NCBI GenBank assembly: GCA_963642145.1
Contig: CAVIFU010000001.1
Coordinates: 4,645-68,644 of the forward strand
DNA: 64,000 nt
Direction: 5' to 3'
From: Ruminococcus bicirculans (ex Wegman et al. 2014)
GTDB lineage: Bacteria; Bacillota; Clostridia; Christensenellales; DTU072
In this document: positions 42,551 through 43,575 of the stretch, one piece after another
How the letters are laid out: every line of letters begins with the position of its first letter
Position numbering within the stretch: the first letter of the stretch is position 1
Translations under genes and position numbers: made by a program
The notes under the pieces: model-generated
Told to the model about the DNA's origin: nothing
The model's database searches: none
Seen by the model: the letters and a program-made list of their open reading frames with translations, nothing else

Positions 42551-42592
42551 TTGTCAAAACCACTTGACAACGTCTTTTTTAGTATATATAAT
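42551..42592 (+). promoter_or_regulatory. perfect consensus promoter TTGACA-17-TATAAT with an overlapping operator-like palindrome TTGTCAA-N6-TTGACAA
   Basis: -35 at 42564-42569, -10 at 42587-42592. The palindrome arms are 42551-42557 and 42564-42570. The whole unit is duplicated at 44309-44350. Confidence 0.65.
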
Positions 42593-42598
42593 CGTCTC

Positions 42599-42674
42599 AA
42601 TGGTAACGCGATTCTTTATGAATCCCTGGCTAATGTTTTTATTAACAATGGCACTGCGTTACCATTATTTTTTT
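42599..42674 (+). ncRNA. candidate ~76-nt hairpin sRNA convergent with, and overlapping the 3' end of, the 119-aa gene
   Basis: It would start ~7 nt after the -10. An 11-bp closing stem AATGGTAACGC / GCGTTACCATT encloses an inner GATTC/GAATC hairpin and is followed by T7. The T-tract is the complement of the gene's terminal Lys codons. Confidence 0.5.
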
Positions 42675-43024
42675 ATCTTCTTTAAGTAGTTATCCTTAGC
42701 CTTATCTCCGTATTTTTTAGCAACCTTGTAATCGTTAACAGTTACCGTTCCTTTATAAGAATTAAAATATTGAGATTTTACATCCACTATCCCTTGTCTT
42801 CGGAGATATGATACTTTTCCATCATTTAGCGGACTCTTCTCTAATCGATAATTATTACCGCTATTTTTACCTTTTCCTTTGGAAGCCTGAGTAGTCAATC
42901 CCACCGACACATATTTATCTTTAACAGAATCGGTAATTATATGGTAGTGACCGCCGTTTTTATCTTTGTGCTTCTTAATTTTCACCGGTACAACGTTGTC
43001 CTTCTTCTTAGAATCTTTTTTCAA
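42665..43024 (-). CDS. Lys-rich basic small protein, paralogue A (119 aa)
   Basis: TTG start 6 nt after AAGGAGA. Shares KY.SVG(L/I)T.Q ... L...P......SY(L/I)R..GI(V/I)D ... Y with the 112-aa ORF. Confidence 0.7.
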   Translation of the reverse strand: MKKDSKKKDNVVPVKIKKHKDKNGGHYHIITDSVKDKYVSVGLTTQASKGKGKNSGNNYRLEKSPLNDGKVSYLRRQGIVDVKSQYFNSYKGTVTVNDYKVAKKYGDKAKDNYLKKIKK

Positions 43025-43148
43025 GATATCTCCTTACATGTAATGTTTTAGTGGGTTTTTGCCGGGAACCCACTAAACCCGATTTACATGGCTATTAACC
43101 TCACCTTGTTTATTTACGGATACTGCCGTATCAGTTTTTGATTTTTGC

Positions 43149-43177
43149 TTGACATGTTTCAAACAATGACATATACT
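43149..43177 (+). promoter_or_regulatory. consensus promoter TTGACA-17-TATACT
   Basis: Hexamers read directly. The spacer contains the small palindrome TGTTTcAAACA. Confidence 0.6.
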
Positions 43178-43183
43178 TACTAT

Positions 43184-43251
43184 GTTGGATTTATCCAGCA
43201 TAAGTAAGCGAAGGTATTGACTTTGGGTCAATGTGCTTACTTATTTTTTTT
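43184..43251 (+). ncRNA. candidate ~68-nt sRNA convergent with, and overlapping the 3' end of, the 112-aa gene
   Basis: A 10-bp stem ATAAGTAAGC / GCTTACTTAT encloses ATTGAC-tttgg-GTCAAT and is followed by T8. The 3' arm covers the gene's stop codon (43237-43239). Confidence 0.5.
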
Positions 43252-43575
43252 ACGATTTTTCTTATAATTGCGGATTTTCGATTTCACTTTTGGATAATCC
43301 TCATCAGAAAATTTATAATTATTTTTCGCACGCCCATATGAATCGTGTTTATCTCGGATAATTCCGTTCCTTATATATGCACTATCAGTTCGACATTTTT
43401 GCGGATTGTTTTTCAAAGGCATATTTTCTTTACCAAACGTTTGCTGTTGATGAGTAATTCCGACAGAAGAATACTTCTTGCCATCATCCTCAAATATATA
43501 AGTCATGTGTTTCTGATTAGCATTAAAACGGAATTCATTCTTTGCGACACTTTTTCTCTTTTTTGCCATAATCAA
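43237..43575 (-). CDS. Lys-rich basic small protein, paralogue B (112 aa from TTG 43575; 110 aa from ATG 43569)
   Basis: Clear paralogy to the 119-aa ORF. No SD is adjacent to either start; an AGGAGG lies ~30 nt upstream. Confidence 0.6.
   Translation of the reverse strand: MIMAKKRKSVAKNEFRFNANQKHMTYIFEDDGKKYSSVGITHQQQTFGKENMPLKNNPQKCRTDSAYIRNGIIRDKHDSYGRAKNNYKFSDEDYPKVKSKIRNYKKNRKKNK

What the first reader, a model, noticed from the sequence alone, without database searches (positions are those of the whole stretch)
42551..43575. Paralogous Lys-rich ~115-aa proteins, each opposed by a consensus-promoter-driven convergent hairpin sRNA overlapping the gene's last codons
The 119-aa and 112-aa ORFs are clear paralogues (KY.SVG[LI]T.Q ... 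L..[SN]P......SY[LI]R.. GI[VI]D). Immediately downstream of each, on the opposite strand, is a textbook promoter: TTGACA-17-TATAAT at 42564-42592 and TTGACA-17-TATACT at 43149-43177. Each promoter is followed by a 68-76-nt transcript. That transcript is essentially one long hairpin (10-11-bp closing stem with an inner hairpin) plus a T7-T8 tract. The 3' stem arm and the T-tract are the complement of the protein's stop codon and terminal Lys codons. This 3'-overlapping convergent layout is what is seen in Bacillus type I toxin-antitoxin loci (txpA/RatA, bsrG/SR4). Here, though, the partner is a basic ~115-aa protein, not a small hydrophobic peptide. I do not recognise the protein family; the beta-rich pattern is vaguely MazF/SH3-like. 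Alternatives are antisense control of a phage ssDNA-binding protein, or a new protein-toxin/RNA-antitoxin pairing.
Basis: partly seen in the sequence, partly recalled or inferred. Interest (0 to 1): 0.75.

Follow-up and report, generated by a model that had tools for sequence, protein, structure and literature searches.

The report
MazF-fold proteins paired with convergent sRNAs
Two small basic proteins with a MazF-toxin-like fold each sit next to their own strongly promoted, structured small RNA on the opposite strand; this pairing recurs in many filamentous-phage-like prophages of gut Clostridia and looks like an undescribed RNA-controlled toxin-antitoxin-type module.

Summary
Both consensus promoters, both hairpin-plus-T-tract transcripts and their overlap with the stop and Lys codons are at the stated coordinates. 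A third, orphan copy lies at 44322-44432.

Neither RNA is a chance hairpin or a mere terminator. Every homologue of the 119-aa protein with enough downstream DNA (30 loci) carries a convergent near-consensus promoter and a three-way-junction RNA (type A), with 18 of 24 pairs showing compensatory changes. Homologues of the 112-aa protein (18 loci) carry a different RNA (type B), with 20 of 21 compensatory pairs. Each RNA occurs only beside its own protein family. Rfam has no match.

The two proteins are distant paralogues (hhalign E 3e-6). Independent AlphaFold models of both match almost only MazF/PemK toxins in the PDB (TM 0.45-0.62). Pfam, NCBIfam, PHROGs and PADLOC give no significant hit.

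The genes are accessory cargo, not core: only 7 of 80 related Zot/G2P-Rep-type prophages have them. At least five further families of small basic proteins in the same phages show the same layout, sometimes in tandem arrays. Orphan RNAs beside truncated protein genes occur.

My best reading (about 0.5) is an RNA-antitoxin module with a MazF-fold toxin. Toxicity and the mode of neutralisation are untested.

The parts
42665..43024 (-). Gene for the 119-aa basic protein (p119 family). Predicted MazF/PemK-like fold: five strands plus a Lys-rich C-terminal helix. Conserved motifs: H-x-D-x4-GGHxH[VI][IV], SVGLT[TS], KGK, SYMRRQG.
   Evidence: ORF. Family of 75 clusters and 140 representatives at 50% identity. 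Alignment A2. AlphaFold pLDDT 89.6. Foldseek top hits are MazF/PemK in PDB and BFVD.
42564..42592 (+). Promoter of sRNA A: TTGACA-17-TATAAT, 12/12.
   Evidence: An equivalent promoter (mostly at least 10 of 12) lies at the same place in nearly every homologous locus with enough downstream DNA.
42599..42674 (+). sRNA A (type A), about 76 nt. Three-way junction: P1 closing stem that doubles as terminator stem, variable hairpin P2, and P3 with a conserved wobble-rich base (family consensus GCUNAUG / UGUUUGGC), then U7. The last 10 nt are complementary to the stop and two Lys codons of the 119-aa gene.
   Evidence: Fold. Covariance model R1 hits 42602-42670. Covariation on 34 sequences: 87% of cells paired, against 33-46% when the partners are slid; 18 of 24 pairs compensatory. 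No Rfam match.
43237..43569 (-). Gene for the 110/112-aa basic protein (p112 family), a distant paralogue of p119 with the same MazF-like fold. Conserved motifs: NEFRYN, H..Y[VI]F, SVGITH, NMPL..NP, AYIRNG, VKSKIRNYKK.
   Evidence: 60 clusters. Alignment A6. hhalign A2 against A6, E 3e-6. AlphaFold pLDDT 93.7. Nearly all of the 50 best PDB matches are MazF-family toxin chains, TM up to 0.62.
43149..43177 (+). Promoter of sRNA B: TTGACA-17-TATACT, 11/12.
   Evidence: Conserved in 16 of 18 loci of the p112 family.
43184..43251 (+). sRNA B (type B), about 68 nt. A 5' hairpin, then a long closing stem with an internal loop and inner hairpin, then U8. The 3' end is complementary to the stop codon and the last four codons of the 112-aa gene.
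   Evidence: Fold. Model R2 hits 43184-43251, E 2e-4. Covariation: 91.6% of cells paired, 20 of 21 pairs compensatory. Not matched by the type-A model.
44322..44432 (+). Orphan third unit: perfect promoter (44322-44350) and type-A sRNA C (44357-44432).
   Evidence: Direct repeat D1/D2. Promoter 12/12. Fold -23.6 kcal/mol, z -3.8. R1 hit at 44360-44428.
44423..44467 (-). Remnant of a p119-like gene. Only the last 14 codons and the stop remain (GDKAKDNYLKKTKK*), abutting the host methionine gamma-lyase gene.
   Evidence: Sequence, read against the p119 C-terminus. Repeat.
37421..42534 (-). Remainder of the integrated element that carries the modules: tyrosine integrase (37421-38620), 172-aa ORF, 782-aa transmembrane plus P-loop protein (39417-41765), 30-aa transmembrane protein (41780-41872) and 221-aa membrane protein (41869-42534). 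No Rep or adsorption-protein genes are present, so the element looks partial.
   Evidence: Pfam and PHROGs hits for the integrase. Homologues of the 782-aa protein sit in prophages with a G2P-type Rep; in some p119-family loci the same position holds a Zot-like ATPase instead.

Best explanation
Each pair is an accessory two-gene module carried by filamentous-phage-like (Zot / G2P-Rep type) prophages of Christensenellales and related Clostridia.

One partner is a small, very basic protein with a MazF/PemK-type fold. It is probably an RNA-binding or RNA-cleaving toxin (inferred). The other partner is its own dedicated, strongly and probably constitutively transcribed structured sRNA of about 70 nt. 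The sRNA gene lies immediately downstream on the opposite strand, and its terminator shares DNA with the protein's stop and Lys codons.

I propose that the sRNA keeps the protein in check as an RNA antitoxin (inferred). The most likely route is direct binding through the conserved wobble-rich P3 base and junction, in the manner of type III systems. Head-on transcription and antisense pairing with read-through mRNA, in the manner of type I systems, would add to this.

If transcription stops or the prophage is lost, the short-lived RNA would decay and free the protein. That would give prophage addiction, exclusion of other phages, or both (inferred).

Shown here: the RNAs are conserved and structured, each is specific to one protein family, the proteins have the predicted fold, and the modules are accessory and modular. 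Inferred: toxicity, RNase activity, RNA-protein binding and the biological role.
For: 1. The RNA genes are real and selected.
- Nearly every locus with enough downstream DNA has a near-consensus convergent promoter. No comparable promoter precedes the protein genes.
- Covariation is strong in helices unrelated to termination.
- A U.G pair is kept in 32 of 34 type-A RNAs, and further wobble pairs are conserved. These would be mismatches on the other strand, so selection acts on the sRNA strand.

2. Cognate specificity.
- Type-A RNA is found only beside p119-family genes. In 1.09 Mb of related loci, only the locus that has a p119 gene gives a hit.
- Type-B RNA is found beside p112-family genes, apart from two weak hits elsewhere in two of those loci.
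- The proteins have diverged to about 20-30% identity, yet both families kept the layout.

3. Fold. Two independent high-confidence models match essentially only MazF/PemK toxins. The non-significant hhalign alignment to E. coli MazF places the family's LTT-x-x-KG motif on the catalytic-region CTTQSKG of MazF.

4. Accessory and modular behaviour typical of toxin-antitoxin or defence cargo.
- Only 7 of 80 related prophages carry them, and they sit in a variable slot.
- At least five more families of small basic proteins in the same phages have the same convergent promoter-hairpin-T-tract partner. A non-basic protein in the same slot has none.
- Locus L014 has five modules in tandem, and the window has two plus a remnant.

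5. Asymmetry. Orphan sRNAs with intact promoters lie beside truncated protein genes (window copy C, and L014 6813-6886). The only family member with sequence downstream but no strong promoter or RNA-model hit (L047) is itself a partial match.

6. No conserved neighbouring small ORF could serve as a protein antitoxin.

7. Filamentous prophages are known to carry accessory toxin-antitoxin systems, for example PfiT/PfiA of Pf4 (PMC7264888, PMC12328805).
Against: - There is no experimental or expression evidence for the RNAs, for toxicity or for RNase activity.
- The similarity to MazF is at fold level only (TM 0.45-0.62, Foldseek E 0.02-0.3). Sequence profiles do not connect the families.
- The catalytic Arg of MazF has no obvious counterpart.
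- The His cluster of the p119 family is absent from the p112 family, so no shared catalytic centre is evident beyond the [ILV]-T-[TSH] motif.
- ToxN-type type III toxins were not among the structural matches.
- The protein genes lack an obvious promoter of their own. They may be made only when the phage operon is on, which fits a phage-cycle function as well as a toxin.
- All sequences come from uncultured MAGs.
Confidence: 0.5

Rival explanations
1. Antisense gene-expression control without a toxin, in the manner of lambda OOP. The convergent sRNA and its strong promoter down-regulate a harmless accessory protein, or throttle read-through into the downstream assembly genes. The means would be transcriptional interference and RNase III cleavage of the sRNA-mRNA duplex.
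For: The layout is convergent, and the sRNA gene is fully complementary to any read-through transcript. The protein genes lack their own strong promoter, so they are probably part of the phage operon. In the window the sRNA A promoter lies only about 30 nt from the start of the next gene.
Against: The sRNA follows the small basic protein gene wherever that gene sits: before or after the 782-aa gene, in arrays, or next to unrelated genes. It does not follow any particular downstream gene. Conserved junction and wobble nucleotides and a conserved three-way junction are not needed for perfect cis-antisense pairing. A plain terminator would insulate equally well.
Confidence: 0.2
2. A functional ribonucleoprotein. 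The basic MazF-fold protein is the dedicated binding or stabilising partner of its sRNA. The complex would act on phage or host targets, for example in regulation, immunity to superinfection or packaging. On this view the RNA is not an inhibitor of the protein.
For: One RNA family strictly accompanies one protein family. The conserved structured RNA has invariant unpaired or wobble positions suited to protein recognition. The proteins are very basic, with Lys-rich tails.
Against: Orphan sRNAs persist with intact promoters after the protein gene has been lost, which is odd for an obligate complex. No conserved target-like variable segment was identified. The closest structural relatives are all toxins.
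Confidence: 0.17
3. The proteins are the single-stranded-DNA-binding (gpV-like) or another core replication/packaging protein of these filamentous phages, and the hairpins are DNA-level signals such as a minus-strand origin or packaging signal.
For: The proteins are small and basic, with a beta-barrel, and sit among phage structural genes. The sRNA has the polarity of a primer for the complementary strand (inference from gene orientation).
Against: Only 7 of 80 related prophages have the genes. The genes occur in tandem arrays and as paralogue pairs. Another conserved protein of about 118 aa (cluster E5) is present in 28 of the loci and is a possible candidate for that role. Foldseek finds MazF, not gpV/OB folds. 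The conserved double-stranded sigma-70-type promoter and the G.U-rich helices argue for an RNA, not a single-stranded DNA structure on the packaged strand.
Confidence: 0.05
4. The hairpins are only Rho-independent terminators, possibly bidirectional, and the promoters are chance matches.
For: Each RNA ends in a canonical stem plus T-tract, and AT-rich DNA yields many promoter-like hexamers.
Against: In nearly every locus the promoter is conserved in position, spacing and sequence while the flanks diverge. Inner helices P2 and P3 covary. On the mRNA strand the hairpin is not followed by a T-run.
Confidence: 0.03

Closest known systems
Type III toxin-antitoxin systems (ToxIN, CptIN, TenpIN; AbiQ/antiQ)
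   Same: The antitoxin is an RNA specific to its toxin. By established knowledge, the toxin ToxN has a Kid/MazF-like fold. These systems are carried on mobile elements and are used for phage exclusion. Here the proteins also have a MazF-like fold, and each has its own structured RNA.
   Different: Type III antitoxins are tandem 34-45-nt repeats upstream of the toxin on the same strand, cut into units by the toxin. Here the RNA is a single unit of about 70 nt with its own promoter and terminator, downstream and convergent. No tandem repeats are present. The proteins are 110-150 aa, against about 170 aa for ToxN, and have no sequence match to known families.
Type I toxin-antitoxin loci with 3'-overlapping convergent antitoxin RNAs (txpA/RatA, bsrG/SR4, bsrE/SR5, sprA1/SprA1AS)
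   Same: A convergent sRNA is driven by a strong promoter and its 3' end overlaps the 3' end of the partner gene. Such loci lie in prophage or mobile-element contexts in Firmicutes.
   Different: Those toxins are hydrophobic membrane peptides of less than 60 aa, and the overlap is 35-120 nt or more. Here the partner is a soluble, basic protein of 110-119 aa with a beta-barrel. The overlap with the coding sequence is typically 9-15 nt and can be nil. The RNA has conserved structure beyond what antisense pairing requires.
SymE/SymR and RalR/RalA (type I systems whose toxins are nucleic-acid-targeting proteins, not membrane peptides)
   Same: They set a precedent for a 64-113-aa soluble protein that binds or cleaves nucleic acid being controlled by an sRNA. 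RalRA lies in a prophage.
   Different: SymR overlaps the 5' end of symE, and RalA acts in trans with Hfq. SymE has an AbrB/MazE-like fold and RalR is a DNase. There is no homology to the proteins here.
MazF/PemK/Kid endoribonucleases (type II toxins)
   Same: This is the best and almost exclusive structural match for both proteins. The strand order and the T-[TS] motif at the end of strand 3 are similar (alignment not significant).
   Different: There is no Pfam PemK match and no MazE-like protein antitoxin gene. The catalytic Arg is not evident. The proteins have Lys-rich N- and C-terminal extensions, and the p119 family has an extra H-x-D...H-x-H cluster.
Lambda OOP RNA and other phage cis-antisense RNAs (P22 sar)
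   Same: A short (about 77 nt) convergent transcript with a terminator hairpin overlaps the 3' end of a phage gene.
   Different: OOP has no conserved three-way junction or family-specific partner protein. It is a single regulator of cII, not a mobile, multi-family module.

Membership tests
Type I TA, 3'-overlapping convergent class (txpA/RatA, bsrG/SR4) | Antitoxin is an sRNA transcribed convergently to the toxin gene, with overlapping 3' ends | tested here: met
   Promoter, hairpin and T-tract lie on the opposite strand, and the stop codon lies inside the terminator. The arrangement is conserved in homologues.
Type I TA, 3'-overlapping convergent class (txpA/RatA, bsrG/SR4) | Toxin is a small (under about 60 aa) hydrophobic membrane peptide | tested here: not met
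   The proteins are 119 and 110/112 aa, with K+R of about 0.25-0.30. The predicted structure is a soluble beta-barrel plus helix.
Type I TA, 3'-overlapping convergent class (txpA/RatA, bsrG/SR4) | Extended sRNA-mRNA duplex that triggers degradation or blocks translation | tested here: inconclusive
   The overlap with the coding sequence is only about 2-19 nt, typically 9-15. A long duplex forms only if the mRNA reads through the sRNA gene. No terminator is evident on the mRNA strand, and the mRNA 3' end is unknown.
Type III TA (ToxIN/CptIN/TenpIN) | Toxin with a Kid/MazF-like endoribonuclease fold | tested here: inconclusive
   Both proteins have a MazF-like fold. ToxN itself was not among the matches, and activity was not tested.
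Type III TA (ToxIN/CptIN/TenpIN) | Antitoxin is an array of tandem direct repeats upstream of the toxin on the same strand, separated from it by a terminator | tested here: not met
   No tandem repeats were found. The RNA is a single unit with its own promoter, downstream and convergent.
Type III TA (ToxIN/CptIN/TenpIN) | RNA binds and inhibits the toxin protein directly | not testable with these tools
   Only indirect hints exist: each RNA is specific to one protein family, and junction and wobble nucleotides are conserved.
MazF/PemK (Pfam PF02452) type II toxins | Sequence match to the PemK/MazF profile | tested here: not met
   No PemK hit for the window proteins, for 39 family members or for distant relatives. 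hhalign against E. coli MazF gives E 0.17 and against B. subtilis MazF E 0.78.
MazF/PemK (Pfam PF02452) type II toxins | CcdB/MazF fold | tested here: met
   For p119 the 18 best PDB matches are all MazF-family toxins, and for p112 nearly all of the 50 best are. TM is 0.45-0.62 and Foldseek probability about 1. PemK-like phage proteins top the BFVD list.
MazF/PemK (Pfam PF02452) type II toxins | Adjacent MazE/PemI-type protein antitoxin gene | tested here: not met
   No conserved small ORF accompanies the genes across 48 loci.
Inovirus ssDNA-binding protein (gpV-like core gene) | Present as a core gene in related phage genomes, with an OB fold | tested here: not met
   Only 7 of 80 related prophages have a family member. 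Structural matches are MazF, not gpV.
Any Rfam RNA family | Covariance-model match | tested here: not met
   No match reaches the gathering threshold in the window apart from a tRNA. Only noise appears at E up to 10 over 42540-43290.

The most novel reading that the evidence does not exclude
These are a new class of RNA-antitoxin systems. In them a MazF-fold toxin is neutralised by direct binding of a dedicated, separately transcribed, non-repetitive structured sRNA encoded convergently at the toxin's 3' end. The class would be a hybrid of type I layout and type III mechanism. It has diversified into at least seven protein families, each with its own RNA partner, and serves as addiction or anti-phage cargo of filamentous prophages in gut Clostridia.
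Probability: 0.3. Interest if true: 0.85.

Novelty: new variant of a known kind. Interest (0 to 1): 0.74.

Why it matters
If the reading is right, it adds a missing combination to the toxin-antitoxin repertoire. That combination is a MazF-fold protein controlled by a single-unit structured sRNA with its own promoter, instead of a protein antitoxin (type II) or a repeat array processed by the toxin (type III).

It would also define at least two new structured RNA families with strong covariation support and no Rfam entry. The analysis further delimits a large, uncharacterised group of Zot/G2P-Rep-type prophages in Christensenellales: 481 loci among species representatives. These prophages have a variable slot that collects such modules.

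The modules are compact, at about 0.5 kb, and occur in many orthogonal families. They would therefore be easy to test, and potentially useful as orthogonal RNA-protein pairs.

Tried and rejected
- Known protein families. Pfam, PHROGs, NCBIfam, PADLOC and PDB sequence searches found nothing significant for either protein.
- HUH nuclease or relaxase idea. It was prompted by the H-x-D...H-x-H motif and by weak Pfam Relaxase hits in 8 of 39 members (best E 0.0014). I rejected it because the predicted fold is all-beta plus one helix and MazF-like, and because the His cluster is absent from the paralogous p112 family.
- Sequence bridge to MazF. Neither hhalign nor an exhaustive profile search followed by Pfam scans of the weakest hits gave one.
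- Rfam at permissive thresholds gave only noise.
- The RNAs as one family. Rejected: model R1 does not find sRNA B.
- The RNA as an mRNA for a peptide. In the window, sRNA A starts with AUG and has an open frame, but the frame runs past the terminator. Homologues differ by indels that are not multiples of three and lack the AUG.
- A sigma-54-like TGGCAC-N5-TTAC motif in the type-A RNA. Rejected because the -12 GC is missing and the spacing varies, while the 3' part covaries as a stem.
- A core phage gene. Rejected: 7 of 80 related prophages.
- IMG/VR viral contigs contain no relatives of p119.
- A primary-sequence pattern scan of genome contigs for the type-A motif was swamped by chance matches. 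None of the 80 fetched loci passes the covariance model.
- The first alignment of the 782-aa protein was too divergent for the locus search. A smaller alignment worked.
- Literature searches found no description of these modules.
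Full report
**1. What is in the window**

The 119-aa ORF (42665-43024) and the 112-aa ORF (43237-43575) both lie on the minus strand. The 112-aa ORF probably starts at the ATG at 43569, giving 110 aa.

Downstream of each, on the plus strand, is a sigma-70-type promoter. TTGACA-17-TATAAT lies at 42564-42592 (12/12) and TTGACA-17-TATACT at 43149-43177 (11/12).

The RNAs that would start about 7 nt after the -10 boxes fold far better than shuffled sequence. They give -25.9 and -25.2 kcal/mol, z -5.8 and -5.4, with no shuffle of 200 as good, and they end in T7/T8.

Reading the sequence, the stop codon of each ORF lies inside the 3' arm of the closing stem, and the T-tract is the complement of the last Lys (and Asn) codons.

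Two things were missed:
- The two RNAs have different architectures.
- There is a third unit. A 166-nt direct repeat, 42546-42711 / 44304-44469 (88-94% identical), carries a perfect promoter (44322-44350) and an RNA almost identical to the first. It retains only the last 14 codons of a p119-like gene (GDKAKDNYLKKTKK*), next to the host methionine gamma-lyase gene.

**2. Surroundings**

The genes lie at one end of a small integrated element on the minus strand. It comprises:
- a tyrosine integrase, 37421-38620 (Pfam Phage_integrase, E 2e-27);
- a 172-aa ORF;
- a 782-aa protein with N-terminal membrane segments and a P-loop;
- a 30-aa membrane peptide;
- a 221-aa membrane protein;
- then p119 and p112.

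Host genes flank the element: lexA, a PadR-family gene, rnhA and tRNA-Trp on one side, and mgl, miaA, mutL and mutS on the other (the names of miaA, mutL and mutS are my own reading of the ORFs, not tested).

**3. The proteins**

p119 has 75 relatives at 90% clustering. It has 140 representatives among 1.84 billion proteins clustered at 50% identity. None has a Pfam domain or a name.

p112 has 60 relatives. One is annotated as a hypothetical protein of a Christensenellales bacterium.

Pfam, PHROGs, NCBIfam, PADLOC and PDB sequence searches are empty.

Pairwise similarity between the two proteins is marginal (E 0.017). Profile against profile gives 88% probability and E 3e-6 over 79 columns. 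They are true but distant paralogues.

AlphaFold models built with the family alignments are confident: pLDDT 89.6 and 93.7, pTM 0.79 and 0.85. Both show five or more strands followed by a long Lys-rich C-terminal helix.

Foldseek results:
- Against the PDB, the 18 best matches for p119 are all MazF-family toxin chains, and so are nearly all of the 50 best for p112. TM is 0.45-0.62 and probability about 1, with E 0.02-0.3.
- Against viral predicted structures, the top matches are proteins annotated 'PemK-like protein' or 'Endoribonuclease'.

Sequence profiles do not reach MazF. The non-significant hhalign alignment nevertheless puts the family's VSVGLTTQxxKG on MazF's LCVPCTTQSKG. An [ILV]-T-[TSH] motif at the end of the third strand recurs in all the related families.

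The p119 family also has an invariant H-x-D...GGH-x-H cluster. This explains weak Pfam Relaxase hits, but the cluster is absent from the p112 family.

**4. The RNAs are conserved, structured and family-specific**

Thirty loci in species-representative genomes encode p119 relatives. Nearly all come from Christensenellales/Clostridia gut MAGs.

Every locus with enough downstream sequence has, on the opposite strand, TTGAC[AT]-16/18-TATAAT-like hexamers, scoring at least 10 of 12 in nearly every case. These are followed by an RNA with the same plan:
- P1, for example GUAACGACG/CGUCGUUAC;
- a variable hairpin P2;
- the conserved GGCUNAUG;
- a variable hairpin;
- the conserved GUUUGGCAC, then the 3' arm of P1 and U5-8.

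A covariance model (R1) finds exactly this RNA once beside each p119 gene, twice in the window (units A and C), and twice in L030.

On the 34 aligned sequences, 87% of cells pair, against 33-46% when the partners are slid. Eighteen of 24 pairs show compensatory changes, and no shuffle of 500 reaches the observed values.

The base of P3 is a conserved wobble-rich helix, with U.G in 32 of 34 sequences. It would be mismatched on the other strand, so the selected molecule is the transcript of the promoter strand.

R1 finds nothing in 1.09 Mb of related prophage loci that lack p119, apart from the one locus that has it. It also finds nothing in 0.56 Mb of unrelated DNA containing the primary-sequence motif.

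Eighteen loci encode p112 relatives. Sixteen have the convergent promoter and an RNA of a second plan: a 5' hairpin, then a long stem with an internal loop and an inner hairpin.

Model R2 finds it beside p112 genes and at window 43184-43251, plus two weak hits elsewhere in L039 and L032. On that alignment 91.6% of cells pair, and 20 of 21 pairs are compensatory.

Rfam has no match for either RNA.

**5. Overlap with the coding sequence is minimal**

Across the p119 loci, the end of the T-tract lies typically 9-15 nt inside the ORF. In some loci it is 2 nt or none.

The shared DNA is essentially the stop codon plus Lys codons that double as the U-tract. A long sRNA-mRNA duplex would form only with read-through mRNA. 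No T-run follows the hairpin on the mRNA strand.

The protein genes have no strong promoter of their own. The mean best score upstream is 7.8 of 12, with one of 56 reaching 10.

**6. The carrier elements, and the accessory nature of the modules**

The neighbours of both families recur in a fixed order:
- membrane-anchored proteins of about 340 and 670 aa;
- a homologue of the 782-aa protein or, in its place, a Zot-domain ATPase (PF05707, above threshold);
- a G2P-type rolling-circle Rep (PF23343, 36 bits);
- often a further conserved protein of about 350 aa.

This is the gene content of filamentous-phage-like (inovirus-like) prophages.

Homologues of the 782-aa protein mark 481 loci in the species-representative genomes. 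Among the 80 fetched, only 7 encode a p119 or p112 relative.

The genes sit in a variable slot between the roughly 670-aa gene and the 782-aa gene, or just after the latter. In other prophages this slot is empty or holds other genes.

Several of those other genes are further families of small (110-155 aa), very basic proteins (clusters E12, E13, E58, E89, E95). They have a similar N-terminal strand pattern and Lys-rich tails.

Nearly every member of those families with enough sequence has its own convergent near-consensus promoter, a 70-110-nt hairpin RNA and a T-tract at its 3' end. A secreted, non-basic protein in the same slot has none.

A generic scan found 85 promoter-hairpin-T-tract units that end at a convergent ORF of at least 70 codons. 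About 70 of their partners are basic ORFs (K+R 0.22-0.30), falling into at least seven sequence clusters. Only about ten partners are non-basic.

Locus L014 has five intact modules in tandem, plus two sRNA units beside short ORFs. One of those ORFs is a C-terminal fragment of an E89-type protein.

**7. Interpretation**

The sRNA is tied to the small basic protein gene and not to any particular neighbour. Each protein family has its own RNA. The modules are accessory, mobile between positions, multiplied in arrays and diversified into many families. Orphan RNAs survive loss of the protein. The one p112-family locus without a strong promoter or an RNA-model hit (L047) has only a partial protein match.

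These are the population-genetic hallmarks of toxin-antitoxin or defence cargo. The only structural relatives of the proteins are endoribonuclease toxins. Filamentous prophages are known to carry accessory toxin-antitoxin systems (PMC7264888, PMC12328805).

I therefore favour an RNA-antitoxin module with a MazF-fold toxin (about 0.5). Between the two possible modes, the conserved three-way junction and the invariant wobble-rich helix point to direct protein recognition (type III-like) more than to pure antisense action (type I-like). Convergent transcription from a consensus promoter must also interfere with read-through. None of this is shown experimentally.

The rivals are a non-toxic antisense control circuit (0.2), a functional ribonucleoprotein (0.17), a core ssDNA-binding or DNA-signal role (0.05) and mere terminators (0.03).

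**8. Comparison with known systems and novelty**

The layout matches Bacillus and Staphylococcus type I loci, but the defining toxin type is not met. The toxin fold and RNA specificity resemble type III systems, but the defining repeat-array antitoxin is not met. The fold matches MazF/PemK, but the sequence family and the protein antitoxin are not met.

SymE/SymR and RalR/RalA set a precedent for soluble protein toxins under sRNA control, but they are unrelated to these proteins.

I found no paper describing these modules. I rate this a new variant of a known kind. It comes with two (probably more) new structured RNA families and a new protein superfamily of MazF-like fold.

Noticed in passing
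window 43700-43911: A 26-aa hydrophobic ORF (MSVFEILSIVLQMLDILVSVLQKRHK, 43788-43868, +) has a strong AAAGGAGG ribosome-binding site. On the minus strand it is opposed by a perfect TG-extended consensus promoter (43911-43883). A bidirectional terminator lies at about 43700-43731, and a 16-nt inverted repeat (43747-43762 / 43885-43900) brackets the ORF. This could be a classical type I toxin/antisense pair. Alternatively the minus-strand promoter and terminator could form a regulated leader of the p112-p119 genes.
   Followed up: partly
window 43990-44260: A GC-rich island (about 52% GC in 33-36% surroundings) has several GC-rich hairpins, for example 44235-44251. It has no convincing ORF and no Rfam match. 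It lies between the orphan sRNA C and the small ORF.
   Followed up: partly
window 42546-42711 and 44304-44469: A 166-nt direct repeat (88-94% identical) brackets 1.76 kb that holds both protein genes. It may mark a tandem or partly deleted second prophage, or a recombination between two modules. The element's attachment sites were not identified.
   Followed up: partly
window 37421-42534: The integrated element has the integrase and the 782-aa protein but no detectable Rep or large adsorption-protein genes, which the related prophages have. It looks like a partial or satellite-like derivative. A lexA gene (36618-37304) lies directly beside the integrase.
   Followed up: partly
L014 4900-10600: An array of at least five consecutive modules of small basic protein plus convergent sRNA, from different protein families. 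Two further sRNA units lie beside short ORFs, one of which is a C-terminal fragment of an E89-type protein.
   Followed up: partly
L025 about 8400-8560; L030 8319-8465; L043 downstream of 8321: Some loci carry two sRNA units in series downstream of one protein gene. Each unit is a promoter plus hairpin, or the two form a tandem pair of hairpins.
   Followed up: no
L001, L012, L054, L065 (upstream of the p119/p112-family gene); window 43057-43090: A GC-rich hairpin often lies between the preceding gene and the ribosome-binding site of the basic protein gene, for example GCCGATCGGGG...CCCCTTTCGGC in L001 and AGTGGGTT...AACCCACT in the window. It may be a terminator or attenuator that limits entry of upstream transcription.
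   Followed up: no
window 17172-25457: A very large ORF (2761 aa) on the plus strand in the host part of the window. It was not examined.
   Followed up: no
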